Positions 4,056 to 64,000 of a stretch of 64,000 nt of DNA are shown one piece after another. Numbering within the stretch: the stretch's first letter is position 1; each line of letters opens with the position of its first letter. Both the position numbers and the translations under genes were made by a program. The stretch is from NCBI GenBank assembly GCA_028716045.1, contig JAQUQO010000001.1, positions 320,942 through 384,941 on the forward strand, in the 5' to 3' direction. This stretch comes from Patescibacteria group bacterium (GTDB lineage Bacteria; Patescibacteriota; Patescibacteriia; JAQUQO01). Below the pieces are notes generated by a model. It saw nothing but the letters and a program-made list of their open reading frames with translations, ran no database searches and was not told the DNA's origin.

Positions 4056-4083
4056 AAAAACCACGGATGATTCCGTGGTTTTT
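4056..4083. terminator. bidirectional intrinsic terminator between fmt (+) and the MBL/cNMP gene (-)
   Basis: AAAAA CCACGGA tgat TCCGTGG TTTTT. Confidence 0.6.
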
Positions 4084-4118: not shown

Positions 4119-6311
4119 CTATGCCTCGGGGCTATATCCTCGCTGAGTGAGGATAAAACGTAGGTGACGACGGACAGAGGGGACAGTGAGATAAAGCTGA
4201 TTAAACTGGGTAGCGTTTATTTTATAAACAGTCACCCTGCTAATCGCTTTAATTGTGGCGGTTCTTTCTTTCTGTAGCTCAAGAGCTACAATTTCGCCCA
4301 CAATATCTCGCGGGCCAAGAACCGCAATCTGCTCCCCTCCTTTTTCCACACTTACTTCGCCCTCAAAGATGACATAACAATCCTTTGAAGTTGTCCCTTC
4401 GTTGATGATAATCATTCCCTCGGGAAAGACCATTTTTTCAGCGAAAGAACTGATTTTCGCGAGCAGTTGAGCTGAAACCTCAGCGAAAATTTTCACCCGA
4501 CGGAGAAAATCTCTTGTTTTCCACATAGTCTGAAGAGCTGAGATTGTTTCGGGATTATGACTTATAAACTCAGTAAAAATTTCTCCGGGAATAGAGAATA
4601 TTTTCACTGGCGAAACGGCTCTAACGGTTGCATTTCGCGGTTTTCGTTGGACAAAAGCCATTTCCCCAAAAATATCCCCGGCTTGCAGTAGGGCAATTTT
4701 CTTTTGAGAAGAATTGGAGCCGACCAATACTTCAAATATGCCACTTAAAACCACATAGACATTGTCCGCTTTACTTCCCTCTTCTATTACTACTGTTCCA
4801 GTCGGTTTATTTTGGATTGTTCCGCTTTGTAGAAAAGCAGAAAGCCAGGATCGGTCAACCCCGAGTTGATTAAGAGCATCTTGGATGCTTATTACATCAA
4901 ATAGGTCGCTGTTACCTGGTACCAGATTAAAATGCTGGGTAGGTCGGAGAAGATGATTTTTGATTTCAGGGGGAAGCTTAGAAGAGTTACTGTGGGTTAA
5001 GAAAATCTTTTCTCTCACTTCCGGGTTACTTTCGATGTAAGAAGCGAAGTCTACGGGTTTCCCATGAAGGGGCGCCCCGCCGGCGTCATAAACGGCCATT
5101 ACTATGTCCTCCCGTTTAGTGGCATTGAGTATTTCCAAGAGGCGATCTCGGCGATTATCCGAAATAACCCCCTTTTGGTGAAGCTCCTCTATGCCGGTCC
5201 AGGAAAGATTATCTCCGCCGATAAGAAGACTTTTCTTTTCTCCGTTACTATCCACTATTGAAAAAGTGAAGCCGATAGTAGGAATACTATGCGCGTTGTA
5301 ATGAGCGGTAATACAACCGCCAGGGATTTTTACCGGTTTAGTCGGAGTAAGGAGGACAAAGTCAAAGTACCCCCTTACCTCGTTTTCGTCGATATCCCAG
5401 ATAGCCGAGATTTTCAGACAGAGTGAGCCGAAAATTTCCGGAGTAGTAATCACTTTTAGCTTTTTGTCCTTGCGGTGAATTGATGATGCGGCCCAGTGGT
5501 CGTCATGGACATGAGTCGGACAGACGGCTTCTATCTGAAGTAAGCTCAATCCCATTCTTTCTACCACTTCGGCTACGTACGGCATAGAATCAATAAGATA
5601 GAAAAGTCCCCTCGCTCCAGCTATAAGACCGCTGCAAGCGTTCTCGGGGTCAAAACCGTTTGACGCACTTAGCACCTCTAAGCCGAGACTTGACGGCTCA
5701 ACAGCTTTGTAGAAAACTGGCAAGGGAAACGGAGGAATTTGTTCTCCTTCAAAATTGAGATTAATAACATCGAGGTCGTTGACCAAAAAGATGTTTTTGT
5801 CGAGTTTAGCGATTTTAACACCTCTAGCCCCTTCTTGAATTACCACTTCTCCCAACTCGTTAAAATAGTGAAAATCCACTAAATCACGAATTTGGAGAAT
5901 TTTACCATCTCTTTTGAGGGCAAAGTGGTCCATTTCGCGGCGGAGCATCTCTGCTACTCCCTTAGAAGTTCCCCAACGTTTCATCTCTTCGTCAGTCGGT
6001 CCTAAAAGAGTAATACGTAAAATCGTCTCAATCTGTTGGCACTGTTTTTTTGTGCCGACGATTATCAATTTTTCTCCTCTAGAAAATCCGCCGGAATTGA
6101 AAAGATGATAATAGAGAATAAATTCAAAGGAGAATTGAGAGTTGCCGCCGACATAAGGGACGGAGGGGGCAACGACAATTCTCACCCTAGGAGAATCGGG
6201 TGTTTGCAATATTTTTTTTACCACCTCGGGTGGCGCGCCAAACAGCACTCCTCCTATTTCCGTTTTAACCAAATAACACCCTTCACAAAGTTTTATTGTT
6301 TGCTCGTTCAT
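4119..6311 (-). CDS. multidomain protein: N-terminal unknown region, metallo-beta-lactamase-fold hydrolase core, and two C-terminal cyclic-nucleotide-binding (CAP-family) domains
   Basis: MBL motif THVHDDHW, with downstream His/Asp residues HYNAHS and DAGGAPLHG. Two cNMP-binding signatures: GDIFGEMAF...RNATVRA and VGEIVALE...RTATIKA. Strong SD AGGAGG lies 7 nt upstream of the ATG. Confidence 0.8.
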   Translation of the reverse strand: MNEQTIKLCEGCYLVKTEIGGVLFGAPPEVVKKILQTPDSPRVRIVVAPSVPYVGGNSQFSFEFILYYHLFNSGGFSRGEKLIIVGTKKQCQQIETILRITLLGPTDEEMKRWGTSKGVAEMLRREMDHFALKRDGKILQIRDLVDFHYFNELGEVVIQEGARGVKIAKLDKNIFLVNDLDVINLNFEGEQIPPFPLPVFYKAVEPSSLGLEVLSASNGFDPENACSGLIAGARGLFYLIDSMPYVAEVVERMGLSLLQIEAVCPTHVHDDHWAASSIHRKDKKLKVITTPEIFGSLCLKISAIWDIDENEVRGYFDFVLLTPTKPVKIPGGCITAHYNAHSIPTIGFTFSIVDSNGEKKSLLIGGDNLSWTGIEELHQKGVISDNRRDRLLEILNATKREDIVMAVYDAGGAPLHGKPVDFASYIESNPEVREKIFLTHSNSSKLPPEIKNHLLRPTQHFNLVPGNSDLFDVISIQDALNQLGVDRSWLSAFLQSGTIQNKPTGTVVIEEGSKADNVYVVLSGIFEVLVGSNSSQKKIALLQAGDIFGEMAFVQRKPRNATVRAVSPVKIFSIPGEIFTEFISHNPETISALQTMWKTRDFLRRVKIFAEVSAQLLAKISSFAEKMVFPEGMIIINEGTTSKDCYVIFEGEVSVEKGGEQIAVLGPRDIVGEIVALELQKERTATIKAISRVTVYKINATQFNQLYLTVPSVRRHLRFILTQRGYSPEA

Positions 6312-6388
6312 TGTAAAAACCTCCTAATTATGGGCACATGGCCCGGGTTAAGAAAAGAGGCCGTCATTTGAGTTCAACCCTTAAAACA

Positions 6389-6437
6389 CTACTAAATATT
6401 TCATGTTTCTTGGTGGTTTGGTCCTACTAAATATTTC
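6389..6437. promoter_or_regulatory. two copies of a 14-bp direct repeat, CTACTAAATATTTC, upstream of the MBL/cNMP gene
   Basis: Exact 14-mer at 6389-6402 and 6424-6437, in the 5' region of the minus-strand gene starting at 6311. Candidate operator. Confidence 0.3.
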
Positions 6438-6551
6438 GGACCCGACCCAAATGCGTTAATGACGACGTACAAACACTGTTTGTCAAAGAACCGTAACTTA
6501 CCGCTAACACAGCTAATATACCCCAAGGGTTTAAAAAAGTCAATATTAAAA

Positions 6552-6574
6552 AACCGCGATTTATTATCGCGGTT
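6552..6574 (-). terminator. intrinsic terminator of the small membrane-protein gene
   Basis: AACCGCGAT aataa ATCGCGGTT followed by TTTTTTAATATT on the minus strand. The stop codon lies in the 3' arm. Confidence 0.5.
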
Positions 6575-6806
6575 AGTGAACACTTTTGGCGATTTTCCAA
6601 AGAAATCTTGCTATAAAAAACAGCAGCAAAAGTGTAAAAAGAACAAAAGTAAGGGTGGGCAAAATTTTTGGTAAAAATTCGGGGTGTTTCCAGTACACAT
6701 CCGCAATTTTAAGCGGAATATAGAGGGTATAAACAGTAATTAAGCCTATGCCCACCTGACAGCACAGAAAAAAAGTTTTTAAGAAAGCAAGTATTTTTCT
6801 CTCCAT
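6573..6806 (-). CDS. small membrane protein with 2 TM segments, hypothetical
   Basis: Start at internal Met (MERKILAFLKTFF...), preceded by AAAGGAGGAGAA. A TATAAT promoter sits immediately upstream. The sequence is hydrophobic. Confidence 0.5.
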   Translation of the reverse strand: MERKILAFLKTFFLCCQVGIGLITVYTLYIPLKIADVYWKHPEFLPKILPTLTFVLFTLLLLFFIARFLWKIAKSVH

Positions 6807-6830
6807 TTCTCCTCCTTTTACAGATTCCGT

Positions 6831-6858
6831 ATTATAGCGCAAAAAATTTATTTGTCAA
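6831..6858 (-). promoter_or_regulatory. sigma70 promoter TTGACA-16-TATAAT (minus strand)
   Basis: Reverse complement reads TTGACAaataaattttttgcgcTATAAT, directly upstream of the SD and start of the small membrane gene. Confidence 0.5.
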
Positions 6859-25228: not shown

Positions 25229-26863
25229 TTATTGTTCACGCCGGTGACGCAGAGAATTCAGCGAAATTTCCTCTGCGTTATCATCAACTTTTAATATCGG
25301 CTCCACTTTGTAGGTTTTTTGGGCCGGTAAGGGTTTTTTGTCTTCGCGTTCCAAAGACGCCAGTTGTTCCCTTAATAATTGAGTTTTATCCCGCCGACTT
25401 CTGGCTTTAGCTAAACATTCCCGGCAATAAACCGGACGCACGCCGTCGGGCTTGAAATTTACCATTATCTCCGCCCCACATTCGGCACATTTTGCTGGAT
25501 ATTGGACAATGTCTTTTTTCTCTATTCTTCCGCCCTCTCCTCCTTCGCCCTCCTTTTCTCTTCTGATATTTTCTTTCGCTTCTTCACTAATACTCCAACG
25601 CATAATTTTTTCTTCCACTACCGACCGCGGTTTGGTATAACGTTCTCTGGAAACTTTAATAATCTTTTCCCTATTCTCCTGGCGCTTGGCAATCGGCGGC
25701 AAGGTGGTGGCGGAAAAAGGCATGGTAGCCACGCCGTCAACCATCAGTTTTAGATAAACATCGTATTTTGTCAGGTTAACCAAATCCTGTTCGGTGAATT
25801 GTGGAGCGAACTCTTTTTCCAAGACCTCGGCATCGGCGGCGCCGACGCGAAAACAGACCAGCGTGCCGACGTTGCCAAAAACCGCGGCCTGAACCTTTTC
25901 ATCAAGCTGTTCAATATACTGATGACCGACTATTAAATTCAAATGATATTTGCGGGCTTCCGACAGAACATTGGCGAAAGATTCGGTGGAAAAATTCTGG
26001 AACTCGTCAATATAAAGATAAAAATCCGGCCGGTCCTCTTCCGGCATATCAATTCTTTCCATGGCCGCCAACTGAATTTTGGTAATCATCATCGCGCCGA
26101 GCAAAGAAGAATTATCCTCACCCATTCTGCCCTTGGAAACATTCAAAATTAAAATTTTCCGGTTATCCATAATATCGCGGATGTCAATGGTGGATTTCAC
26201 CTGGCCGACGACATTGCGAATCAAAGGGCTAGATAAAAACTGCCCGACCTTATTTTGAATCGGAGAAATAACTTCCTGTAAAACCCTTTCATTCCATTTG
26301 GAATACTCATCAACCCAAAAAGACCTGACCACGGGGTCGGTAATATTATTGATGACTTTTTTGCGGAAAGATTTGTCGGTTAAAATTCTCATTACGCCGA
26401 GCAAAGTGCTTCCCGGATAATCCAGCAATGCCAAAATGGCATTTCTCAAAATATACTCCAAGCGTGGTCCCCAGGAATCAGCCCAAATCTTTTTGAAAAT
26501 TCCGATAAGCCCCGAAGCGATTAAATGCTGTTGGGCCACGTCAACTTTCTCCAAAACATTAAAAGCAATCGGATATTCCATATCCGCCGGATTGAAATAA
26601 ATCACATCGTTTATCCTGGTGGGCGGAATAAAATCCAAAATTTTTTCGGCCATATCACCATGCGGGTCAACAACCGCCACGCCTTGGCCACTCATTATGT
26701 CCTGCACCACCATATTTTCAATTAAAGTCGTTTTGCCCATGCCGGTTTTACCAATTACATACATATGCCGTCGGCGGTCGTCGGTTCTTATGCCAAATCT
26801 GACCTTTTTATTGCGAAAATTAGTTGTGGCAAAAAAATTTATCTTTTCGGCCATATTATTCAA
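25229..26863 (-). CDS. TraD/VirD4 (T4CP)-like FtsK-HerA superfamily P-loop ATPase, lacking a TM domain, with a C-terminal CxxC-N17-CxxC zinc ribbon
   Basis: Walker A VIGKTGMGKTT; VVDPHGD (cf. DPKGD of TrwB/TraD); Walker B FYLYIDEFQNF; RKYHLNLIVGHQYIEQL; C-terminus CAECGAEIMVNFKPDGVRPVYCRECL. The start overlaps the upstream gene's stop by 8 nt. Confidence 0.7.
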   Translation of the reverse strand: MNNMAEKINFFATTNFRNKKVRFGIRTDDRRRHMYVIGKTGMGKTTLIENMVVQDIMSGQGVAVVDPHGDMAEKILDFIPPTRINDVIYFNPADMEYPIAFNVLEKVDVAQQHLIASGLIGIFKKIWADSWGPRLEYILRNAILALLDYPGSTLLGVMRILTDKSFRKKVINNITDPVVRSFWVDEYSKWNERVLQEVISPIQNKVGQFLSSPLIRNVVGQVKSTIDIRDIMDNRKILILNVSKGRMGEDNSSLLGAMMITKIQLAAMERIDMPEEDRPDFYLYIDEFQNFSTESFANVLSEARKYHLNLIVGHQYIEQLDEKVQAAVFGNVGTLVCFRVGAADAEVLEKEFAPQFTEQDLVNLTKYDVYLKLMVDGVATMPFSATTLPPIAKRQENREKIIKVSRERYTKPRSVVEEKIMRWSISEEAKENIRREKEGEGGEGGRIEKKDIVQYPAKCAECGAEIMVNFKPDGVRPVYCRECLAKARSRRDKTQLLREQLASLEREDKKPLPAQKTYKVEPILKVDDNAEEISLNSLRHRREQ

Positions 26864-35174: not shown

Positions 35175-35303
35175 ACGACCTTGGTAGACTTGAGCTAGTG
35201 GTGAAGGGAGGGACCCGCCCCGATCTTCATTGTGGTAATCCCACAATGTGAAATATTCACTTAAATCGGGTTGCCGTCGTAATCGCGATACGACGGCTTT
35301 TTT
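35162..35303 (+). ncRNA. candidate small RNA of about 105 nt, with promoter, between secA and the HExxH gene
   Basis: TTGACT-17-TAGACT at 35162-35190. The transcript GCUAGUGGUGAAGGGAGGGACCCGCCCC... contains hairpins UUCAUUGUGG/CCACAAUGUGAA and GUGAAauaUUCAC. Terminator GCCGTCGTA-atcgcga-TACGACGGC followed by TTTTTT at 35273-35303. Confidence 0.3.
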
Positions 35304-48195: not shown

Positions 48196-51100
48196 TTAAT
48201 AAAATCCCGTATCTATATCATCCATAATATCCTTGCCTTTTTCTCCCGAATCTACTTTCGGTTCTTGCTGAGCATCTTTAATCTCTGCTGGAGCCGGGGG
48301 AATTTCTTTTTTTATTTCTGGACTCGCTGCCGGTCTTGATAGTGGAACTTCCGGGGCTGGCGGGGCTGAAATCCCCATTCCTTCTGTTGATTTCTCTAAG
48401 GGCATATCCAGGGTAATCGCGCCGGCTTTTTCTTTGGCTAAATCAATCGGTGAAGATTTATATGATTTGTAATCCTCTCTTTCGGAAGTAAGATAATAAA
48501 CGTTCGGGCCAACCAAGAACCCGTATCGGCCGGCGGAATCAGTAACTTGAGCCGCTAGTAATTTATTGAATTGAATATCAAAAATGCGAACCACGGCTTT
48601 GCCCAAAGGTTTTTTCGTCCCCTTATCATAAACAATACCCCAACCCTTTGGTTTTGAAGGATAAGCCAAGCGGCGGAACAAGAAATAAAGCATAAAATGA
48701 AGCGCCACCAAAATTCCCATCAGTAGTTTAGGCACAATGGCAAAGGTGACAATTGACAAGCCCAATCCGGAAAGCGAAATGCCATTTTGCACCCGACGAC
48801 CGACGGCCAAAGCTAAAATCTTTCTGTTCGGCTTGTCTTCTTTCACCGGGTCAAGCGGGATATTGGCGGTAATAACAGCTCCGCTTGCTTCTACTTTTAT
48901 GTTTTCCCCGTGGTATAAATCAAGGAACGCCATATCCTCTTTTTTCTCTCCCAACAATGACGTGGGATATTTAAATTCCACTTTTTTCACCTCTATCCGA
49001 TAAGTCCCCGCTTCTTTAATTATCAGATTATAACGCCCTTGTTTGTCGGTAATTTGCGTCTGAACTAAAGTTCCGTTTTGGACATTAATCAAGCGGACAA
49101 TAGCCAAATCAATCGGCTCCTTGGAAATAGAATTATACACCGTCCCCCAGCCCTTCCTCTTGCGACGCGATAATAATCTAAAAGGTTCGGTGAAAATAAA
49201 CTGTAAATAAGGAATGAGATACACAAAAGAGATAGCCGTGGAAGCATTAACCGCCACCACCGCCACTAAAGTCGGGGCGACGTAATTTTGAGCGGCTTTT
49301 TCCACCTGCGGGTCATCAGCCAGCTCTCCCACGGTATTAACTATAACTTCAACTGTTCCCACAAGGGAATTGAGGAAATCCGCAACCGGTGATTCCACTA
49401 TGTCCTCTTCGTTATTGTCATCAATACTCAAACACCCCGCGTCAGCCGGATAATCCGTCTGACCATCTCCATCATTATCCGCCCCGTCAAAACAAGCAGG
49501 GAGAGAAACGGTGAATTCTTCTACGTTGGAGATTATTTTGTATTCCTTGGCTATCTCATCATAAACTCTGACGTAAGATTTATGCGCTCCCGGAGGCAAA
49601 GAAATTTTTATATTTTCCGCCCATTCCTCGTTCTGCGGCGTAAATTCATACTTGTAAATCTCGCTCTCCACGACTAATTCATATGTTTTGCCAATTTCGG
49701 CATTATGCATAATAACGGTAATGCCAGCATCCATTAATTTGCTTTCCGCGGACACTTTGCCTTGCCGCACCTCACTAAGTTTAACTCCCTCCAAGCGAGC
49801 GGCTATTTCTTTGATATTTATTTCACCAATAGTCACTCTTATTATCGTATCTCTTATTTTCTCGCCGATTTCTTCTTCCTGCTCCTCTTTTATTTCTTCC
49901 GCTGTTTTCTCTGTTACTTTAAACTCAAACAAAGAAGAATAAACTTCTCCCACTTTCACTCTTAAAGTATGCGCCCCAAATAATAATTCATCCGTTAAAG
50001 TATAGCTGAAAAAACCTTCGCTGTTAGCTTTCGTGCTGTCCAGATATTCTCCGTCCAAATAAATATCCACTGCGCCGTTGCTGACATAAGCGTTACCCCT
50101 GATAGTCGGCGCTGTGTCAGTAATTTCGGAATTGTCCCCGGGATATGTGATAACCGGTGGTTTTTGTTCTGCTTTTTTATATAATCCAAAATACGCCGAA
50201 CCCTTGCCGCCGCGTTCCAAATCCACGGTTACCATTTCCGAAGTAGTCAGAGTGTATCCGGAAGGCAAAACCAGAGAATATTTCCCTTTTTCTATCTTTC
50301 CGATTTTAACAAAATGTTTTCCCGCTCTTCTGCCATCCACCGTAGAATGCCCCCCTGCCACGGAACTCACGGAATACACATTAACTTCTGTTTCCTGCGG
50401 ACCACTCAAAGCCCCGTCTCCATTCAAATCATAATAAACGAGCGTTCTGATTCCTTGCACACCCTTCTCGCCCTTGTCATATTGGCCATTATTGTTGCCG
50501 TCAAAAAAAGTAAAAATATCAATGGCGCCGGCGCTGACCGGATTTAAAAGGGTGTTGGAGGTAGCAGATTTATTTTCTCCGTTTTGCGTATATTCGGCTT
50601 TAGCCACATTAGAAATAGTATGGGGCACACTTTGCTTTACCTCATCAGGCGAAACTTTAAAGGGTAATGTCAGATAACCTGACTGACCGGCTTTTACTTC
50701 TCCCAAATTAAATATTATTTCGCAAGAGCTGGTCTCCTCTTCCCCTGCACATTTTAGAAAATCTTCCAACCGGCCAACCGACTCGCTATTTTTCTTCAAA
50801 TAACCGTCGTCAAAAATAACTGAATCTATTTTATCTTTTATAACTACGTTTTTCAGATCGTCTTTCGTTTGATTGATATAATCAATCTGATAAACAATAC
50901 TGTCTTCCGGCTGCACTGCCACGCCATTGCCGGCGTAATTTTCCACTTTTATTGAAGCATCATTTAATCCGGCCATGGTAGCCATCATCGCCACTTTCAC
51001 TATTCCCAAAACAACTGCCATTGCTAAAGTGGAATAGGCCTTTCTCTCAAATCTTATTCTCACCATGGAACGCGCGGCTCGATTCCACAAAACCAGATGA

Positions 51101-54100
51101 TAGCTTAAAATAACCAAAGAAATCAAAATAAAAAAAGACATCACCGCTGAAAAATTTCTAAGATACTTTAGATTCTCCAGCGGCTGGATTTTTGTTCCGA
51201 TATTTAAAGAGGAGCTTAAAACCGCGGAGCCCTTCACTTCTCCCTGCCCCGGTTCCTTAATGACCGCTGTTTTAATAAGCGTGAAAGACGGGGGCAAGGT
51301 TTTGGCCGTGAGCGCTTCTGACCAGGGCGTGTCAACTCCTCCGCCATTTCGTCCCCTGGCGCGAATAGTATAAGAAGTGTCGGGTTTTAAATTGCCAAAG
51401 GTAAAACTATTTTGTCCGGCGGCGAATTCCGAAGCCAGCGGTGTTCCGTCTTCCGGAATTCTATCTCCCTCGTAGATTTCAAAAGTCACTCCCGCTTGCT
51501 CCCAATCCGTCCCGACCGGGAAAGAATAATTATCCACGCTCGCCCATAAAGAAGTAGTGAGCGCCGCCTGCAAGGTCGGCTTAGACGGCGGTTCAGCTAA
51601 AGTCCAAACAGCGGGACAAACCGCGCAATCTCCCGAATAAGCATTGGTTATTTTATTTTTTACGCAAACCTTGCGGCCATCAAGTTTAGTATTATATTTT
51701 AATCCTTCCTTCGAACTCTCCTCGTAAAAGCCAAAATATTCCTGCGTAAAATACGCATAAACAGTGGACTCCTTCGCCGGAATCCAGGACTTTAAATACT
51801 GGTCGGTATTGTAAACAGCCGTCAAATATCCGGACCAAGGAGTGGTGTACCCGGAAGAAACCACATCCACCATTTTGTCAGAGGTCACAAAAGGAACAAA
51901 TTCCAGATTATCCCTGTCGGATTCGTTCAAAAAATCAATGGGAAAATCCACCACCCAAATAATAGCATGCCCTTCTCTGCCCCCATAAGAACTGGCGTCA
52001 AATCCTCCGAAGCCGCGGCAATTGGTCGCGTTAACCATAAACCCGGCCGCGATATCTTCGGCATAATTTAAAGTGACATTATAAATTATGGGCGTATCCG
52101 TATCCGGCGTTAATACGGCCTTCCATCTCAAATCGCTTCCGCTGGTGGCAAAAACGTATTCCACCCCATTCGTCACCGCCACCCAAGTGGTCCCGCCATC
52201 ATTGCTTAAATAATAGGCAATAGTGGAAGCGCCCGGCAGATAATGTTCGGCCGTTAAGGTGGCTCTTAAGATATTTCTCCCAGGATTGGCCATGGCAACG
52301 GATTGAGCGATATAAGTGCCGGCGGTTTGAGTTAATTGCGGAGTGAAAATAAAGGAATCGCCCGAAGAATAAGCGACCAGCAGTTCTTTCATGGAGTCGC
52401 GATTAATGTCATGGGCGAAAACCGCGGAGGAAGGTGCGGCGCTTAATAATTCCACGGTAAAATCGCCCCGACCGTCGTTCCGGTAAATATATGTTCCTGC
52501 GGCGCCACCAACTAAATATAAATCAACATCTCCGTCATTATCCAAATCATCGCCCCGGAAAATTCCCGTCGTGCCCAATGACTGTTTAGTAAATGAGCCT
52601 TGGCCATTATTCCAATAGATGGCGGAGTTTATATCGGAATTAGAAACGACGACGTCTTTCCAGCTATCGCCGTTTAAATCGGCGGAAACTATATTATCTG
52701 TGCTGCCTTCTCCGAATTGGCTTTCCCGTATAAATGTTCCGCTGCCATTATTCCTGTATAAAAAATTCTGCTGGCTTACTCTATCACCCACCAAAATATC
52801 CACGTCTCCGTCATTATCTATGTCATCCGTGTATCCCTGAAGCGTGTTCTCCCACGCCAAACCCAAATCTTCCTGAATAAAAGTTGAACCATCGCCGTTG
52901 TTTCTAAAAATAAAATTCTGGCCGTTTTCAAAAATAATAATATCCTGGTCGCCATCCCCTTCCACGTCCGCCGGCCAAAGCTGTCTTTCATTACCAATAC
53001 TTACTATTTGGGTTATAGTGCTGAAATTGCCCGCGCCGTCATTGAAATAAACGCAATCCCAGCCGTTATCAGCCCCCACTAAAATATCCAGATACCCGTC
53101 GCCGTTAAAATCAGCCGCGCCATCAATATCATTATTGGCGCAAGAAACATTGGTAAAGGGAGCGGTGGCCGTAAATCCCCCACCACCATCGCCCAGATAG
53201 ATTTTACTGCTGGTGGCGGCATCGGCTCCGGACAGCACCGCCAAATCTTCATAACCATCATAATTCACATCCCCCAAAGGCATTATTTTTGAAGTCTGCG
53301 CGGGGAAATTGGCTCCGCCGTAAAGTTGCGCCCAACCGCCATCGGCGTCATTATTATGAAGATTATTTTCATAAATATAATTTTGGTCATCGGCATCGGC
53401 GCAAGTTCCGCCGATACAAGAAAAATAATGAATGATATCCTCATCGCCGTCTTTATCTATATCCGCAGCCGCCAAGTTATCCGCCTTATCAACATTAGCT
53501 GACCCACTGGCGAAATATCCGGTTTCTTCCGTAAAAGTCCCGCTGCCCTTATTGCGCAACAGGCCGTTGATGCCCACGCCGCTCGCTATGACCGCCAAAT
53601 CCATATCACCGTCCAAATCGGCGTCAACGTCAATCATTTTGGCGTAATTAAAACTAAAAGCGGCATTGGCCGTAAAAGTTCCTTGCCCGTTATTTTGATA
53701 TAAAAATAAACTCGCGCCATTTGAAGCAATGATGTCCTCATCTCCGTCATTATCAAAATCATTAACCACCAAACTATCGTTGCCGCTACCGGCCGCATAA
53801 GCCAAAGTGCTCGCCAAAGTAAAGGCGCCCGTCCCATCATTAGTATAAATTTTCGCGCCAACGCCGTTATCGCAAACAATGACGTCCATGTCTCCGTCAA
53901 CGTCAACGTCAACGGCTTTAATGGTCCGAGTGTCGCCAGCGTTGAAAGTGTCACTGGAAGTGAACGTGCCATCACCGTCATTGAGCCAGAGTTTATCCTG
54001 CGCGGCGGTTCCTTCCAAGATATCAACATCGCCGTCCTTATTAACATCGGCCGCGTCCAAAGATTGGGTATTGCTGGCACCAAATCCCGAGTATTCGCTG

Positions 54101-57100
54101 GCCGCGCCAAAAGTTCCGCTGCCATTATTCAAATAATAATAATTTTGACCATTGTTGCCTTGAATAATATCCTTATCACCATCCTCGTCTAAATCCACGG
54201 CTAAAAGCGTATTGGTATTTCTGCTCGTGCCGCCGTCGGGAAAAGGAGTTGATTCTGTAAAAGTTCCGCTGCCATTGTTCTTGTATAAATACATTGGGTT
54301 GCCATAATTGCCCGCTACAATATCCTGATCTCCATCAGTATCAATATCAACGGACAGAATAAAGGAGGTGTCATTGGCCGCGGCCGCCGGACTTAAAGCG
54401 GCGCTGCCGACAGCGAAAGTATTGGTCGCTGGCGCCCGAATCACCTCTCCGACAGCGCTCCATTCGGTCGTAGTGGTGGCGCTATCGCGCCAAACTGTGG
54501 TGTCAAAAGTATCAGTAATGCTTCCCCTGATGGCGGTAAAAGAAAAAGTGGCGCTATAAGCTGTGCCGCCGTTTTCATCAACGCCCGCCACCCTCCAATA
54601 ATAAGTCGTCTTGGGGGTTAAAGTATATTTCGCGGGTAAGGTGAAAGAAGCCGTATCTCCGGAATTATAAAAATTGACCTGCGACCATCCCAGAGAATCA
54701 TCTTTGACATACCAGATATTGTCTTCTTTTTGGTAAAAAGTTAAAACATCTTTGTTAAACGATGAATCCGCGGCGATTTCCAAAATATAATGCAGAGTAT
54801 CACTATCCGTATCCGTAGTGGAAAATTCAAAAGTGGGGTTTAAAGAAACTCCGGTCGCTCCGTCAGCCGGCGCGGTTAAAGAGGGTGTCCCGGGGTTGGT
54901 GTTGCCGTAAGTTATGGAAATATCAGAAATTGACGCCGAATAAGCGACATCCGTGGTGGCTAATATCGCCTTCCATCTTAAATCTGAACCAGTGGTTGTA
55001 AAAGTATGCGCTACTCCGGAAGTGGCCGCCTCCCAAGTTCTGCCGCCATTGTTGGATAAATAATAAGTGACAGAAGTGTTGGTCGGAGTAGTGGCCGTGG
55101 CTGTAAGAGTAGCCACATTTATATTTTCCACCGTGCTATCAACTATCTTGGATAGTATTGTGCTGTTATTATATTTATAAGAAAAGCTCTGCTCTAATTC
55201 GCCATAACCGCTCAAAAATATTTTTTTATCAACGTCATAATTAGGAGAGACAACTAAGGACTTATAATTAACGTCAGCCAGAGAGCTTCTGCTTTTCCAA
55301 ATTAAATCAATTGAAGTATCGTCGGTAAAAATAGTGTCCGAACTGTTGTGGGAAACTCCGCGCAAATCCAGATAACCATTATTATCCATATCGATAAGAC
55401 AGATGCTTGCGTCCGGACCGTAATCACTGGCTGGCTCGCCCGGGTCATAGGTGTAATCCGCGGTAGTGTTAAAAGTAGGGGCTCCATAATAGGCATAAAA
55501 CTTTCCGCGATGAAAAGTTTCTCCCGCTGACGCCCGATAATCCGGAGCCGCCACGACGACATCATCATAACCATCTTTATCTACATCGGCTGCTTCTACT
55601 AATTCGCCAAAATCGCTGCCGCTATCGTCAGCAGAATCATTGATAGTGCTATTGGCAGAAACGGTTGTCAGAGTGGATGCCAGTGAAGCGCTGCCGTTAA
55701 AAACATAAACACGCCCATCGCCGTCGCCAGCAGCACGAGAAGCTCCCACCACAATATCGTTATACCCATCGCCATTCACATCACCGGCAAGGGATAAATC
55801 TATGCCAAAAACATCACCAGCATCACCGGTTAAGGTGACGTCAGCCGTTGTATCAAAAGATTTTCCGCCGTAATAAATATAAACCCGCCCGGTATTAGCG
55901 CTGTAACTGGGCGCGCTAATCGCCAAATCATCAAACCCGTCGCCATTAACATCACCGGCACTCACCGCCGCTCCAAAAAGGTCGCCAGCCGCCGCGCCGG
56001 ACAAAGCATAATCATACACGTCATTAAAAAGTTTTCCCCCAAAATAAATCACCACTCCGCCCTGATTAGCTCCCTCTCCATTATTGTAGGTATATATACC
56101 TACAATAATATCTTTAAAACCATCGCCATTGATATCGGCAATAGTCACGCCATTATCACTGATTGTTTCAGCCGTAACATCCACATCGTCTAACGTATAA
56201 TCAACCACTGTATTAAACGTACTGCCGCCCAATAATACTTCAAGATTGGCGCCGTTTTTATCTAGCACATCCGCATAACCATCACCGTTAATATCGCCTC
56301 CGGCATAGATATTATTAAGCGTGTAATCTGCCGTGTTATCAATTCCGGCGGTGGCATTTAAAAATATACTCGTGGCATTAGCCAAATCCTCCAAACCGTC
56401 ACCGTTAATATCGCCCAAATTAACCCCTCTCTTTTGCTCCGCGTAAGAAGAGCCAAAAGCGCTGGGCATTAAATTCCAATTCTTAGCCGTGCCGCTATTA
56501 GAACTCACATATATTTGCGGAGTATCATTAAAACCTGCCCAAATACGTTTGTCACTGCCGCTATAATTATAATCTGGGGAAATGGCTATAGTCCGCAGGA
56601 TCTCTGTCATTCCTGTCGGCGTTATATCTGAAGCTCCCCCTTCAAAACGGTCCACTGTCATATATAAACTGACAGTGGTGTTGCTCCAAACCCAAGCCAC
56701 GCATTTTTCCGGATTGGCAACGCAATTAGCGGTTCCATCAAATTGCGGAGCTAATAACAAATGGTCCCAGCTCCCTCCGGGAATCACCGCCCAGCTAGTA
56801 CCACCATCTATTGTTACTAGACGGGCGCCGGTAGTGGTGGCAAGAACCTCGCTATCAGTTGCGAAGTTTGGGGATATTTTTATATCTGTCACTTCATTTA
56901 CCACATTTGTTCCCGCGTCAAAAGTGGCTCCGGAATCGATGGATTCGTAAATTTTACCGCCGGCCGTGCCTAAAAATAAATTTGCGGAATTTGCCGGGGA
57001 AATAGCAATGACAGTAATGCGATCATACGTTGTGCCAACGGGAGCACAGGAAATAGTGGAGGCCGTCTGGGCCCAAGTAGCACCGCCATCAGTGCTTTTA

Positions 57101-60237: not shown

Positions 60238-61239
60238 TTAAGGCAAAAGGTTATTTTCTTTTAGAAAATCGGCATACAAAATAGCCGCCGCGTCATTGGG
60301 GTGCCAGGAGTCCCCCGGAATTTCCTGTACTTCAATCCCCGCATTAATAGCTTGCTCCGCTATGGGCGAAAGGTCAAAGTGGCGAATATTTAGTTTTTCA
60401 AGAATCTTTAGCGCGGCTTTTTGATTATCCTTTTCCTCATATGACCATGTTTGGTAGGGCTTGAGGATGGGTAGCACCAAAACCGTCAATTTTGCTCCAT
60501 CCTGCATCGTGAGATTTTTCAACTCTAATAAAGCCGCTTCAACCTCGCTTTCAATAACACTCCTGTCTTTCTCCTCATTCAAAAGCGATCCTAGATATAA
60601 TCGGTAGATAGAGCTATTTTGAAGGAGCCACGGGCTGACACCTTGAATGGATATTTGCGGTGTGTAGTAAATAACAAGCTGATTCTGGTTGTCAAAAAAA
60701 ACGGCTGCCGTTACTCTAAAATCGCTGTTATGAAAACCGAGGATTACGTGGTCTGGGGCGATTTTACGATTATATCGCTTATAAAAAGCGACCTCCTGAA
60801 CCGTGGCAAATGCCGACACACCGGCGTTCCAGTATTCAAACTCCTCACCGTAACAAAACCGCAACGCTCTAACAACCCGCCCGATTTCCGTAGTTGAATC
60901 CCCGATAAAAAGGAGGCGAACTACGCCGGGACGTTTTTCCATGGTATAGGAATTGCGTAAAGTCCCCGCTTCAGAATAACGTTTAACACCGAGGATTGGT
61001 CGGAAACCGAATTCAGGGTCTACTGTAAACTCTTTGGTTCTATCCTCTTTTTCTTTCCACACCCATGGTATCTCGGTTTCGGTGGAGAAAGAATGAAAGT
61101 GATAAACACCGGAAAAATAGATACGGGAATAAATCATATCGGCTACTATAATAGCGCAAACTAAACCGAATGCCAAAAGGGCCAAAAGGACTATTCTAAA
61201 CAAAAACAATTTTCGGGCGCTTATTTTTTGTTTTTCCAT
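60238..61239 (-). CDS. membrane-anchored SGNH/GDSL-family hydrolase
   Basis: N-terminal TM; LLFIGDSTT (GDS block); C-terminal DSWHPN (catalytic DxxH). Confidence 0.65.
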   Translation of the reverse strand: MEKQKISARKLFLFRIVLLALLAFGLVCAIIVADMIYSRIYFSGVYHFHSFSTETEIPWVWKEKEDRTKEFTVDPEFGFRPILGVKRYSEAGTLRNSYTMEKRPGVVRLLFIGDSTTEIGRVVRALRFCYGEEFEYWNAGVSAFATVQEVAFYKRYNRKIAPDHVILGFHNSDFRVTAAVFFDNQNQLVIYYTPQISIQGVSPWLLQNSSIYRLYLGSLLNEEKDRSVIESEVEAALLELKNLTMQDGAKLTVLVLPILKPYQTWSYEEKDNQKAALKILEKLNIRHFDLSPIAEQAINAGIEVQEIPGDSWHPNDAAAILYADFLKENNLLP

Positions 61240-62877: not shown

Positions 62878-64000
62878 ATGGCTGATAATTTAGCAAAATT
62901 ACCACCCCAAAATTTAGAGGCCGAGCAATCCCTTCTAGGAGCGCTCCTGATAGACAGAGACGCGATTGTTAAAATTGCTGACATTGTCACGGCGGAAGAT
63001 TTTTATAAAGAATCCCATCGCCTTATTTTTGAAACTATCGCCGACTTATTCTCCCGCCACGAACCGATTGATATTTTAAGCGTCGGCAGCCGGCTGGAAG
63101 AAAGAGGCCAACTGGAACAAATCGGCGGCCGAAGCTATGTCGCGGACCTCACCAACGCCGTCCCGACCTCGTCCCACGTCGTCCACTATGCCAACATCGT
63201 CAAGAAGAAAGCTACTCTGCGACGCATGCTTAGCGCCGCCAGTGAAATCGTGGAATCGGTTTATGAAGAGAACGAAGAAGACGTGGAAAAACTTCTGGAC
63301 AAAGCGGAACAGAAACTTTTTAACGTTTCCCAAAAATATCTCAAACAAATTTTCATCCCGATAAAAAATGTCTTAATGGAGGCCTTTGAGCGCATTGATG
63401 AACTGCATAGAGACAAAGGCAAACTGCGCGGCATACCGACCGGCTTCAAAGAGCTGGATAATATTCTCGCCGGACTGCAAAAATCCGATTTAATCGTTCT
63501 GGCCGCCCGCCCGAGCGTGGGCAAAACCAGCTTGGCTTTGGATATCGCCCGCCAAGTGGCCGTGAAAGAAAAAATTCCCGTGGGAATTTTCAGCTTGGAA
63601 ATGTCCAAAGAACAATTAGTGGATAGAATGCTCTGCGCCGAAGCCGGTATTGATTTATGGAAAATGCGCACCGGCAACCTGTCCACCGGACCCGATGACC
63701 AGGATTTCCCCCGCATCAACCATGCCATGGGCGCCCTTTCCGAGGCCCCGATTTTCATTGACGATTCAGCCACGGCCAACATTATGGAAATCCGCACCAA
63801 GGCGCGCCGTCTGCAAGCCGAGCATGGTTTAGGTTTAATTGTCGTGGATTATTTACAATTAATGGAATCGCGCAGCCGGATTGAAAACCGCGTGCAGGAA
63901 GTGGCGGAAATCACTCGTTCCCTCAAAGCCATCGCCCGCGAACTCAATATCCCGGTGCTCGCCCTTTCCCAGCTTTCCCGCGCCGTGGAAATGTCCCGGC
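62878..64000 (+). CDS. dnaB: replicative DNA helicase DnaB; the 3' end runs past the window (absent from the ORF track because no stop is reached)
   Basis: N-terminal LPPQNLEAEQSLLGALL; Walker A ARPSVGKTSLALDIA; IVVDYLQLM; arginine finger region. Confidence 0.9.
   Translation, partial: MADNLAKLPPQNLEAEQSLLGALLIDRDAIVKIADIVTAEDFYKESHRLIFETIADLFSRHEPIDILSVGSRLEERGQLEQIGGRSYVADLTNAVPTSSHVVHYANIVKKKATLRRMLSAASEIVESVYEENEEDVEKLLDKAEQKLFNVSQKYLKQIFIPIKNVLMEAFERIDELHRDKGKLRGIPTGFKELDNILAGLQKSDLIVLAARPSVGKTSLALDIARQVAVKEKIPVGIFSLEMSKEQLVDRMLCAEAGIDLWKMRTGNLSTGPDDQDFPRINHAMGALSEAPIFIDDSATANIMEIRTKARRLQAEHGLGLIVVDYLQLMESRSRIENRVQEVAEITRSLKAIARELNIPVLALSQLSRAVEMSR

What the first reader, a model, noticed from the sequence alone, without database searches (positions are those of the whole stretch)
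4119..6311. Fusion of an MBL-fold hydrolase with two cyclic-nucleotide-binding domains
One 730-aa protein carries an N-terminal region with no recognisable motifs of about 220 aa. It is followed by a metallo-beta-lactamase core with an intact HxHxDH metal site (THVHDDHW), and then two CAP-type cNMP-binding domains (GDIFGEMAF...RNATVRA and VGEIVALE...RTATIKA). By analogy with MBL-fold class II cAMP phosphodiesterases and MBL/beta-CASP nucleases, I infer a cNMP-gated phosphodiesterase or nuclease: a self-contained sense-and-degrade module for a cyclic nucleotide. Two exact 14-bp direct repeats (6389-6437) sit in its 5' region and are candidate operators.
Basis: partly seen in the sequence, partly recalled or inferred. 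Interest (0 to 1): 0.65.

Follow-up and report, generated by a model that had tools for sequence, protein, structure and literature searches.

The report
Cyclic-nucleotide-activated phosphodiesterase, bacterial GbpA/GbpB homologue
This gene most likely encodes an enzyme that destroys a cyclic-nucleotide signal and is switched on by that same signal; this enzyme type has been known in the slime mould Dictyostelium since 2002, so the find is a new bacterial member, not a new kind of system.

Summary
ORF 4119-6311 (-) encodes 730 aa in four parts:
- a conserved N-terminal domain (1-205);
- a metallo-beta-lactamase (MBL) domain in which every metal ligand is invariant across 42 homologues;
- two PKA-R/PKG-like cNMP-binding domains with intact phosphate-binding cassettes;
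- no C-terminal HTH.

The architecture is not new. A profile of the N+MBL module matches a dictyostelid protein named "cAMP/cGMP-stimulated cAMP/cGMP phosphodiesterase" (E 6e-60). BLASTP with the window protein is collinear through the N domain, MBL and both cNMP-binding domains (1e-22 and 4e-11). This is the Dictyostelium GbpA/GbpB (PdeD/PdeE, class IIb) family, in which cNMP binding activates the MBL phosphodiesterase.

Bacterial members are numerous (516 clusters at E<=1e-30) and carry generic names. I found no paper that characterises one. No gene neighbour is conserved, and no cyclase lies among the ORFs of at least 150 aa in the 64-kb window.

The motif-less N domain belongs to the family module. 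Its fold resembles a degenerate MBL half.

The two 14-bp repeats are real (0 of 5000 shuffles) and are conserved upstream of the 49%-identical homologue. They sit in a roughly 200-nt leader whose helices covary, so an RNA element fits better than DNA operators.

Verdict: new member of a known kind, moderate interest.

The parts
4119..6311 (-). Whole gene: 730-aa GbpA/GbpB-type cNMP-binding MBL phosphodiesterase (stop codon included)
5697..6311 (-). N-terminal family-specific domain, residues 1-205. No sequence match to Pfam or PDB. Its fold resembles a degenerate MBL half that lacks the metal ligands.
4902..5696 (-). Catalytic MBL domain, residues 206-470
5496..5516 (-). THVHDDH metal-binding motif (residues 266-272). 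It fits the [T/S]HxHxDH signature of atypical class II PDEs.
   Evidence: PMC9293780
4512..4853 (-). cNMP-binding domain A (about residues 487-600). Phosphate-binding cassette G549-E550...R559-N-A-T lies at nt 4623-4670.
4143..4502 (-). cNMP-binding domain B (about residues 604-723). Phosphate-binding cassette G672-E673...R683-T-A-T lies at nt 4251-4301.
6320..6325 (-). Shine-Dalgarno AGGAGG, 8 nt before the ATG
6424..6437 (-). Repeat copy 1, GAAATATTTAGTAG. Proposed 13-nt loop plus closing G of hairpin HP1 (stem 6438-6442 / 6420-6424). This helix is only weakly supported.
6389..6402 (-). Repeat copy 2, GAAATATTTAGTAG. 13-nt loop plus closing G of hairpin HP2 (stem 6403-6408 / 6384-6389). The stem covaries with L004.
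6360..6466 (-). Leader domain closed by helix P1 (6459-6466 pairs with 6360-6367). It encloses both repeats, and P1 covaries with L004.
6332..6344 (-). Small hairpin HP3 (GGGC-CATGT-GCCC) just upstream of the Shine-Dalgarno. One compensatory change relative to L004.
6515..6543 (-). Promoter-like site TTGACT-17-TATATT, at the same aligned position as TTGACA in L004. It implies a leader of about 200 nt.
4056..4083 (-). Terminator-like hairpin after the stop codon. With the upstream terminator-like site at 6552-6574, it suggests a single-gene unit.

Best explanation
The gene encodes a cytoplasmic 3',5'-cyclic-mononucleotide phosphodiesterase of the GbpA/GbpB (PdeD/PdeE, 'class IIb' or atypical class II) family.

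Shown:
- The MBL domain (206-470) keeps every ligand of a binuclear metal site.
- Its closest solved sequence relatives are the cNMP phosphodiesterases Apyc1 and YhfI.
- The two C-terminal cNMP-binding domains keep the Gly-Glu and Arg residues of the phosphate-binding cassette.
- The whole chain is collinear with a dictyostelid enzyme of this type.

Inferred from the Dictyostelium enzymes:
- Binding of cAMP and/or cGMP to the tandem cNMP-binding domains relieves autoinhibition and raises hydrolysis of the same nucleotide to 5'-NMP.
- This would clip cNMP peaks by substrate-activated negative feedback.

More speculative:
- The N-terminal domain (1-205) is a catalytically dead, MBL-like half. 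It may pack against the active MBL domain in place of the second subunit of the homodimer that single-domain class II PDEs form, in the manner of long RNase Z.
- Expression is probably from its own promoter through a structured leader of about 200 nt that carries the two 14-nt repeats.
For: Domains and residues.

The THVHDDH motif fits the [T/S]HxHxDH signature of atypical class II PDEs (PMC9293780).

A profile of residues 1-470 against PDB sequences gives Apyc1 7u2s (E 6.3e-8), YhfI 6kns (8.7e-8), BA1088 1zkp and ELAC1 as best hits. Apyc1 and YhfI are cNMP phosphodiesterases, and YhfI prefers cAMP/cGMP (PMC9117128).

Foldseek places the C-terminal half with the tandem cNMP-binding domains of PKA-R and PKG (E about 1e-19).

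Family link:
- The N+MBL profile finds 3314 proteins at E<=1e-3 and 516 at E<=1e-30.
- Among them is P0338 (E 6.4e-60, profile positions 4-436).
- P0338 is named 'cAMP/cGMP-stimulated cAMP/cGMP phosphodiesterase [Cavenderia fasciculata]'.
- BLASTP of the window protein against P0338 gives E 1e-22 over residues 10-533 and 4e-11 over 537-723.
- P0338 has an MBL domain plus two cNMP_binding domains.

Mechanism of GbpA/GbpB: PMC11988041 and PMC8684759.

The AF2 model is confident, with pLDDT 92.4 and pTM 0.91.

N domain:
- The top 13 Foldseek hits are all MBL-fold phosphodiesterases or RNase Z, but the match is weak: best E 1.5e-3, none below 1e-3, TM 0.35-0.47.
- The order of secondary-structure elements matches that of the MBL domain.
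- A weak collinear hhalign match pairs LFGxPPE with LIDxPP.

No conserved neighbours in five lineages.
Against: - Nothing has been measured. Substrate identity (cAMP, cGMP or pyrimidine cNMPs) and the direction of regulation are transferred from Dictyostelium across about 23% identity.
- The name of the dictyostelid match is itself an annotation.
- In the window protein the Pfam MBL match is below threshold, and the Apyc1 model PF23023 does not match it at all.
- No nucleotidyl cyclase was found among the ORFs of at least 150 aa in the 64-kb window, nor among the genes called with Pfam hits in the 5.9 kb beyond its start. The source of the signal is therefore unknown, and the organism is labelled as a reduced-genome Patescibacteria MAG.
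- In nine aligned members (the closest clade) the Arg of cassette A is replaced. In many gammaproteobacterial members cassette B is degenerate. Regulation therefore need not be uniform across the family.
- The pseudo-dimer idea for the N domain rests on modest TM-scores (0.35-0.47) and a non-significant hhalign match (P 0.077).
Confidence: 0.72

Rival explanations
1. A cNMP-gated nuclease: an RNase Z-like or beta-CASP-like RNA/DNA phosphodiesterase whose cutting is switched by a cyclic nucleotide, in the manner of signal-activated effector nucleases.
For: The MBL domain is also distantly similar to RNase Z/ELAC1 (NCBIfam RNase_Z E 0.004; ELAC1 3zwf E 6e-7). Atypical class II PDEs are thought to derive from RNase Z (PMC9293780).
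Against: - RNase Z models score 14-16 bits against cut-offs of 252-293.
- There is no beta-CASP domain. RNase J and CPSF73 match only at E>0.05.
- The best solved relatives are cNMP phosphodiesterases.
- The full-length homologue of this architecture is a cNMP phosphodiesterase by name.
Confidence: 0.07
2. A Pycsar-related component: a host enzyme that senses and degrades cCMP/cUMP defence signals (an Apyc1-like domain fused to PycTIR-like sensor domains), either tuning or disarming anti-phage signalling.
For: - PADLOC gives PycTIR E 4e-34 and other Pycsar effector models.
- PDB PycTIR 8jsk matches at E 1e-10.
- Homologues show weak PF23023 (Apyc1) hits.
- Hobbs et al. raise the possibility that host Apyc1-like enzymes regulate cNMP signalling (PMC9117128).
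Against: - The PADLOC hits cover only the cNMP-binding region and score no better than generic Pfam cNMP_binding (116 against 129 bits).
- PKG and PKA-R are closer than PycTIR (79-88 against 44 bits).
- PF23023 hits reach 19-23 bits against a cut-off of 50 and cover only the HxHxDH region.
- No PycC cyclase or defence genes are adjacent, here or in four other lineages. The neighbours are priA-def-fmt, Wzy and glycosyltransferases.
Confidence: 0.06
3. A cNMP receptor whose MBL module is not a cNMP hydrolase. It would act on some other ester or phosphodiester substrate, so that the cyclic nucleotide controls an unrelated metabolic step.
For: The MBL superfamily is chemically diverse. The profile also touches arylsulfatase, lactonase and paraoxonase entries at E 1e-4 to 1e-2. 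Substrate-pocket residues were not analysed.
Against: Those hits cover only the HxHxDH neighbourhood. The nearest relatives, and the characterised enzymes with the same architecture, hydrolyse cNMPs.
Confidence: 0.1
4. About the repeats only: they are DNA operators, tandem half-sites for a repressor or activator of the gene.
For: - The two copies are exact and 35 bp apart.
- Both copies, and their spacing (35-36 bp), are conserved upstream of the 49%-identical homologue.
- The whole-leader fold energy is no better than shuffles (z -0.07).
- No Rfam family matches.
Against: - The repeats lie 70-120 nt downstream of the only good promoter-like site, inside the presumed transcript.
- In an automatic alignment, RNAalifold finds a closing helix and a hairpin around repeat 2, with 5 pairs changed on both sides and still paired, and none broken.
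- The conserved core is the loop and the variable flanks are the stem. That is the pattern of an RNA hairpin, not of a protein-bound DNA site.
Confidence: 0.3

Closest known systems
Dictyostelium GbpA (PdeD/PDE5) and GbpB (PdeE/PDE6), 'class IIb' cNMP-stimulated phosphodiesterases
   Same: Same order of parts: conserved N-terminal region, MBL catalytic domain, two cNMP-binding domains. Collinear sequence homology to a dictyostelid member across all of them. In GbpA/GbpB the bound nucleotide activates hydrolysis (PMC11988041).
   Different: The window protein is bacterial and shorter: 730 aa against 1105 aa for the matched dictyostelid protein, whose module starts at residue 245. Identity is only about 23%. 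Substrate and activator are unknown. The link to the tested D. discoideum proteins runs through an annotated orthologue, not a direct comparison.
Atypical class II MBL phosphodiesterases: phage Apyc1, B. subtilis YhfI, M. tuberculosis Rv1339
   Same: Closest solved sequence relatives of the catalytic domain (E 6e-8). Same [T/S]HxHxDH signature. These enzymes are cNMP hydrolases (PMC9117128, PMC9293780).
   Different: Those are single-domain homodimers of about 250 aa with no sensor. The window protein does not reach the Pfam PF23023 or PF12706 thresholds. It adds an N-terminal MBL-like domain and two cNMP-binding domains.
Regulatory subunits of PKA and the regulatory region of PKG (tandem CNB-A/CNB-B)
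   Same: Best structural and sequence matches of residues about 480-725. Both phosphate-binding cassettes are intact.
   Different: In the kinases the tandem domains inhibit a kinase domain. Here they are fused to a hydrolase.
Long-form RNase Z (ELAC2): an inactive N-terminal MBL half plus an active C-terminal MBL half (comparison from my own knowledge)
   Same: A possible parallel: a degenerate MBL-like domain precedes the active one in the same chain. ELAC1/ELAC2 appear among the Foldseek hits of the N domain.
   Different: The resemblance is only at fold level (TM 0.3-0.47). The N domain is about 190 aa and seems to cover only part of an MBL fold. I could not examine inter-domain packing.
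Bd1971 of Bdellovibrio, a cAMP-sensing EAL c-di-GMP phosphodiesterase (PMC6717892; I saw only its title and the start of its abstract)
   Same: A bacterial precedent for a cNMP-binding domain fused to, and regulating, a nucleotide phosphodiesterase.
   Different: A different catalytic fold (EAL) and a different substrate (c-di-GMP). It gives cross-talk, not self-feedback.

Membership tests
GbpA/GbpB (PdeD/PdeE) class IIb cNMP-stimulated phosphodiesterases | MBL catalytic domain with a complete metal-ligand set | tested here: met
   D241, H267, H269, D271, H272, H341, D367, H416 and H440 are invariant in 42 members.
GbpA/GbpB (PdeD/PdeE) class IIb cNMP-stimulated phosphodiesterases | Two cNMP-binding domains downstream of the MBL domain | tested here: met
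   Pfam cNMP_binding matches twice, E 8.8e-38. Tandem CNB fold. Architecture as described in PMC11988041.
GbpA/GbpB (PdeD/PdeE) class IIb cNMP-stimulated phosphodiesterases | Sequence homology to a dictyostelid member along the whole chain | tested here: met
   Profile against P0338 (Cavenderia fasciculata cAMP/cGMP-stimulated PDE) gives E 6.4e-60. BLASTP gives 1e-22 (residues 10-533) plus 4e-11 (537-723), collinear. I could not compare directly with D. discoideum GbpA/GbpB because I had no sequence for them.
GbpA/GbpB (PdeD/PdeE) class IIb cNMP-stimulated phosphodiesterases | cNMP hydrolysis that is stimulated by cNMP binding | not testable with these tools
   This needs enzyme assays.
Atypical class II PDE (Apyc1 / YhfI / Rv1339; Pfam PF23023, PF12706) | [T/S]HxHxDH signature motif | tested here: met
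   T266-HVHDDH-272. Signature as defined in PMC9293780.
Atypical class II PDE (Apyc1 / YhfI / Rv1339; Pfam PF23023, PF12706) | Match to the family models above their curated cut-offs | tested here: not met
   The window protein has no PF23023 or PF12706 hit. Homologues score 19.8-23.1 bits against a cut-off of 50 for PF23023. PF12706 is above its cut-off only in some (32.2 against 27 in P0056).
Atypical class II PDE (Apyc1 / YhfI / Rv1339; Pfam PF23023, PF12706) | Single-domain homodimer of about 250 aa | tested here: not met
   The protein is a 730-aa four-domain chain. Its oligomeric state cannot be tested here.
CRP/FNR transcription factors | C-terminal helix-turn-helix DNA-binding domain after the cNMP-binding domain | tested here: not met
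   No HTH_Crp family in Pfam at E<=1. The chain ends about 7 residues after the last helix of CNB-B. The NCBIfam CRP model scores 72.7 against a cut-off of 266.
RNase Z / beta-CASP nucleases | Match to the RNase Z equivalog models, or presence of a beta-CASP domain | tested here: not met
   TIGR02651 scores 16.2 against 292.95, and NF000801 scores 14.1 against 252. No beta-CASP in Pfam. RNase J and CPSF73 match only at E>0.05.
Pycsar effectors / PycC | cNMP-binding domain fused to a TIR or TM effector and encoded next to a pyrimidine cyclase | tested here: not met
   PADLOC hits cover only the cNMP-binding domains. No TIR or TM domain. No cyclase among the neighbours here or in four other lineages.
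Any Rfam family (for the 5' leader) | Covariance-model match | tested here: not met
   No match on the gene strand at E<=1. The only hit was a spurious rli40 match on the + strand, 20 bits against 100. Nothing in L004. No gathering-level hit anywhere in the window.

The most novel reading that the evidence does not exclude
The leader of about 150-200 nt upstream of the gene is an undescribed cis-regulatory RNA. A closing helix encloses hairpins that present the same 13-nt loop (GAAAWAUUHAGUA) twice, followed by a small hairpin next to the Shine-Dalgarno. It would sense a protein or a small ligand, possibly the cyclic nucleotide itself. The phosphodiesterase would then be controlled at two levels, RNA and allostery, in a reduced-genome Patescibacteria lineage that shows no cyclase nearby.

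A second, independent novelty that the evidence does not exclude: the N-terminal domain is a dead MBL copy that forms an intramolecular pseudo-dimer. That would explain how this family dispenses with the homodimer of other class II PDEs.
Probability: 0.3. Interest if true: 0.65.

Novelty: new member of a known kind. Interest (0 to 1): 0.38.

Why it matters
1. It ties a large set of bacterial proteins to an enzyme class with known biochemistry. The set comprises at least 516 clusters at 50% identity, spread across Spirochaetes, Gammaproteobacteria, Verrucomicrobia, Myxococcales, candidate division FCPU426 and others. These proteins are currently named only "cyclic nucleotide-binding domain-containing protein" or "CRP-like". 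This gives a testable function, substrate-activated cNMP degradation, and suggests where the amoebal GbpA/GbpB enzymes may have come from.
2. It shows that the unannotated N-terminal 200 residues are a conserved part of the catalytic module.
3. Its presence in a Patescibacteria MAG of under 1 Mb, with a conserved structured leader, hints that cNMP signalling is retained and tightly regulated in at least one reduced-genome lineage.

None of this changes what is known about how such enzymes work.

Tried and rejected
- Sequence searches with the N domain alone found nothing in PDB or Pfam.
- hhalign of the N domain against the MBL domain gave only a weak match (P 0.077).
- Conserved gene neighbourhood: none in five lineages.
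- Cyclase search: Pfam gave no cyclase among the 27 ORFs of at least 150 aa scanned from 14-64 kb. It matched nothing at all for four of them (26856-28268, 34497-35246, 60238-61239, 63261-63800). The ORFs below 14 kb, and the 5.9 kb beyond the window start, were read only from precomputed Pfam hits. I could not scan the rest of the genome.
- Recent horizontal transfer judged from composition: rejected. Gene GC is 0.442, against a window gene mean of 0.394 with sd 0.041. secA and SHMT are higher.
- Defence-system reading: PADLOC hits are limited to the cNMP-binding domains.
- Riboswitch or sRNA identity of the leader: no Rfam match. The global fold energy is not unusual (z -0.07).
- More copies of the leader: a metagenome scan for the repeat pair returned two unrelated low-complexity loci. 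nhmmer over all 79 held loci found only the window's own organism and L004.
- A 7-codon uORF overlapping repeat 2 is not conserved in L004, so I dismissed it.
- A kissing interaction between the two loops through AAAUAUUU is not conserved in L004, so I dismissed it.
- Literature searches found no paper on a bacterial enzyme of this architecture. The library lacks the original 2002 papers.
Full report
**Observation**

The window carries one long ORF on the minus strand, 4119..6311, ATG start, 730 aa. Pfam finds two cNMP_binding domains (E 8.8e-38). It finds only a sub-threshold Lactamase_B match, 15.1 bits against 22.7. NCBIfam adds nothing specific. The CRP, FtrB and RNase Z models all score far below their cut-offs.

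THVHDDH lies at residues 266-272. The two phosphate-binding cassettes are G549-E550...R559-N-A-T and G672-E673...R683-T-A-T. No HTH follows the second cNMP-binding domain. The two exact 14-bp repeats lie at 6389-6402 and 6424-6437. They do not arise by chance: 0 of 5000 shuffles of the intergenic region gave a repeat of 14 nt or more.

**Is the MBL domain catalytic?**

The exact protein is on record as a "cyclic nucleotide-binding domain-containing protein" of a Patescibacteria-group MAG. About 110 full-length homologues of 705-750 aa have the same layout. In several of them Lactamase_B or Lactamase_B_2 passes Pfam's threshold.

In a 42-sequence alignment, D241, H267, H269, D271, H272, H341, D367, D409, H416 and H440 are invariant. 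That is the full ligand set of a binuclear MBL site.

A profile of residues 1-470 searched against PDB sequences gives these best hits:
- phage and bacterial Apyc1 (7u2s, E 6.3e-8);
- B. subtilis YhfI (6kns, 8.7e-8);
- BA1088 (1zkp);
- human ELAC1.

Apyc1 and YhfI are homodimeric class II cNMP phosphodiesterases, and YhfI prefers cAMP/cGMP (PMC9117128). The motif also fits the [T/S]HxHxDH signature proposed for the "atypical class II" PDEs YhfI, CpdA and Rv1339 (PMC9293780).

The precomputed PF23023 (Apyc1) labels on homologues are weak. They reach 19-23 bits against a cut-off of 50 and cover only the first 70 profile positions. I therefore do not file the protein under Apyc1.

**What the whole protein is**

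The architecture of an MBL domain followed by two cNMP-binding domains is that of Dictyostelium GbpA and GbpB. [quoted passage not shown] GbpA is a cGMP-stimulated cGMP PDE, and GbpB is a cAMP/cGMP-stimulated PDE that prefers cAMP (PMC11988041; PMC8684759).

To test homology and not just resemblance, I searched 1.84 billion cluster representatives with the N+MBL profile, leaving out the cNMP-binding domains. This gave 3314 hits at E<=1e-3 and 516 at E<=1e-30.

Among the top 150 is P0338 (1105 aa). It is matched over profile positions 4-436 with E 6.4e-60. Its sources name it [quoted passage not shown], XP_004358696.1.

BLASTP of the window protein against P0338 is collinear. Residues 10-533 align with 250-820 (E 1e-22, 23% identity), and 537-723 align with 894-1090 (E 4e-11). 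P0338 has an MBL domain plus two cNMP_binding domains.

The window protein is therefore a bacterial member of the GbpA/GbpB family, not merely a look-alike. One caveat applies. The dictyostelid name is an annotation, and I could not align directly to the D. discoideum proteins that were assayed.

**The N-terminal 205 residues**

At sequence level these residues match nothing in Pfam or PDB. They are strongly conserved, with motifs LFGxPPEVxK, EFxLYxFLF and LLRxTLLGP. They are shared with the dictyostelid enzyme. They are part of the family's core module.

A separate AF2 model is confident (pLDDT 92.6). Its 13 best Foldseek matches in the PDB are all MBL-fold phosphodiesterases or RNase Z:
- Apyc1 7u2r (E 1.5e-3);
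- the Brucella AMP/GMP-bound proteins 3qh8 and 3md7 (TM 0.47);
- ELAC1;
- YhfI;
- 1zkp.

No match reaches E<=1e-3.

The order of secondary-structure elements in residues 5-184 mirrors that of residues 209-364 in the catalytic domain. hhalign lines up LFGxPPE with LIDxPP, and IVLPD with LTHxHDDH, though not significantly (P 0.077).

My reading is that this is a degenerate, ligand-less copy of part of an MBL fold. It may stand in for the second subunit of the dimer that single-domain class II PDEs form, as in long RNase Z (that comparison is from my own knowledge). The fold libraries needed for a firmer test were not available.

**The sensor half**

Residues about 480-725 match the tandem CNB-A/CNB-B of PKA regulatory subunits and PKG, by sequence (79-88 bits) and by fold (E about 1e-19). 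PycTIR's cNMP-binding domain is a weaker match (44 bits).

PADLOC hits to PycTIR and other Pycsar models cover only these domains and score no better than generic cNMP_binding.

Both cassettes of the window protein keep the Gly-Glu pair and the Arg that hold the ribose and the phosphate (the roles of these residues are from established knowledge of PKA and CAP). In part of the family one cassette is degenerate.

**Context and distribution**

The gene stands alone. A terminator-like hairpin (6574-6552) ends the upstream 77-aa ORF. A promoter-like TTGACT-17-TATATT follows at 6543-6515, and another terminator-like hairpin follows the stop codon at 4083-4056.

The neighbours are priA-def-fmt on one side and Wzy-type and glycosyltransferase genes on the other. 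Four other lineages have unrelated neighbours. No cyclase or defence gene is adjacent anywhere.

Pfam gave no nucleotidyl cyclase among the ORFs of at least 150 aa from 14-64 kb, and it matched nothing for four of those ORFs. The ORFs below 14 kb were read from precomputed Pfam hits only.

Species-level genomes that carry the family are mostly MAGs:
- candidate division FCPU426 (the closest named group, 33-35% identity);
- Leptospirales, Turneriella, Brevinematales and Brachyspira;
- Verrucomicrobia;
- Pseudohongiella and other Pseudomonadales;
- Myxococcales;
- Lindowbacteria;
- Riflebacteria.

No other Patescibacteria appear in that list. Eukaryotic members include Rhodelphis, Mesostigma and Paratrimastix.

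The gene's GC (0.442) lies within the spread of housekeeping genes in the window. Composition gives no sign of recent transfer.

**The repeats**

The only close homologue (P0002, 49% identity, locus L004) sits in a different gene context. Yet its upstream region aligns with the window's from the promoter-like site to the start codon. Both repeat copies are kept (GAAAAATTAAGTAG and GAAATATTCAGTAG) at 36-nt spacing. The blocks CATTTGGG, TCCGAAA, CTCAAATGAC and AACCGGG..CCCAT are also kept. At this protein divergence, such intergenic conservation implies function.

Each sequence folded on its own gives a long-range helix that encloses both repeats, plus a small hairpin before the Shine-Dalgarno. 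The tool's own MAFFT and RNAalifold run recovers two helices:
- P1, where 6459-6466 pairs with 6360-6367;
- a hairpin whose 13-nt loop is repeat 2, with stem 6403-6408 / 6384-6389.

In that run, 5 pairs changed on both sides and stayed paired, and none broke.

My hand alignment adds a weaker hairpin around repeat 1 and the hairpin HP3. In total it has 23 pairs: 14 unchanged, 2 changed on one side, 5 compensatory and 2 broken.

Conserved loops with covarying stems, all downstream of the promoter, fit an RNA element better than DNA operators.

The evidence is thin:
- there are only two sequences;
- 5 of 7 double changes keeping a pair is not far above the roughly 44% expected by chance (my own estimate);
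- the global fold energy is unremarkable (z -0.07);
- there is no Rfam match;
- no further copies were found.

I put the RNA reading at about one half, the operator reading at about 0.3, and the remainder as unknown.

**Mechanism**

Shown: the domain composition, the intact catalytic and ligand-binding residues, the family membership and the stand-alone gene organisation.

Inferred from the characterised relatives: the enzyme hydrolyses a 3',5'-cyclic mononucleotide at the binuclear metal site. Occupancy of the tandem cNMP-binding domains by the same class of nucleotide raises activity. The result is substrate-activated negative feedback that limits the height and length of cNMP peaks.

Unknown: which nucleotide is involved, where it comes from in this organism, and what the leader senses.

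**Verdict**

The protein belongs to an enzyme type described more than twenty years ago, so this is a new member of a known kind.

Three things are modestly new:
- the size and breadth of the uncharacterised bacterial branch, and its presence in a Patescibacteria MAG;
- the likely MBL-derived nature of the N-terminal domain;
- the conserved structured leader that carries the repeats.

Noticed in passing
window 48196-58863 (-): A 3555-aa ORF with many FG-GAP / FG-GAP_3 repeats, fn3 and CarboxypepD_reg-like domains. It is probably a giant surface or adhesion protein, and it takes up about 17% of the window.
   Followed up: no
window 29691-31727 (-): A SecD-like protein with a PPIC-type peptidyl-prolyl isomerase (rotamase) domain at residues 247-361, inserted between the SecD first P1 segment (99-158) and the P1 head (394-489). 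This is an unusual fusion of a foldase into the translocon accessory subunit. SecF follows at 28805-29716.
   Followed up: no
window 25229-28268 (-): A TrwB/VirD4-like coupling ATPase with a treble-clef zinc finger (25229-26863). Immediately upstream, overlapping it by 8 nt, is a 470-aa ORF with no Pfam match (26856-28268). Together they may be a remnant or minimal DNA-transfer or uptake module.
   Followed up: no
window 6573-6858 (-): A small hydrophobic ORF called as 77 aa in the public record. It has a perfect TTGACA-16-TATAAT promoter-like site (6858-6831) and its own terminator-like hairpin (6574-6552), directly upstream of the phosphodiesterase unit.
   Followed up: partly
proteins P0320, P0224, P0314, P0333: The N+MBL+CNB module also occurs in other proteins. 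In eukaryotes it carries extra domains: Rhodelphis marinus adds a class I PDEase_I domain, giving two different PDE folds in one chain, and Paratrimastix adds cyclin domains. It also occurs in bacterial giants of 2196-2403 aa (Omnitrophota).
   Followed up: partly
L001 21025-22193 (about 5 kb beyond window position 1): A RelA/SpoT-type (p)ppGpp synthetase/hydrolase gene (HD_4, RelA_SpoT, TGS) lies about 9 kb from the phosphodiesterase gene. It is another nucleotide second-messenger enzyme in this small genome.
   Followed up: no
window 6384-6408 (-) and 6312-6356 (-): A 7-codon uORF (ATG AAA TAT TTA GTA GTG TTT TAA) overlaps repeat 2 but is not conserved in L004. In both lineages the Shine-Dalgarno can pair with a nearby pyrimidine-rich stretch, though with a different partner segment in each.
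   Followed up: partly
whole window: No tRNA genes and no Rfam family at gathering threshold in 64 kb. From about 16 kb to 64 kb most genes are on the minus strand and GC skew is persistently negative.
   Followed up: no
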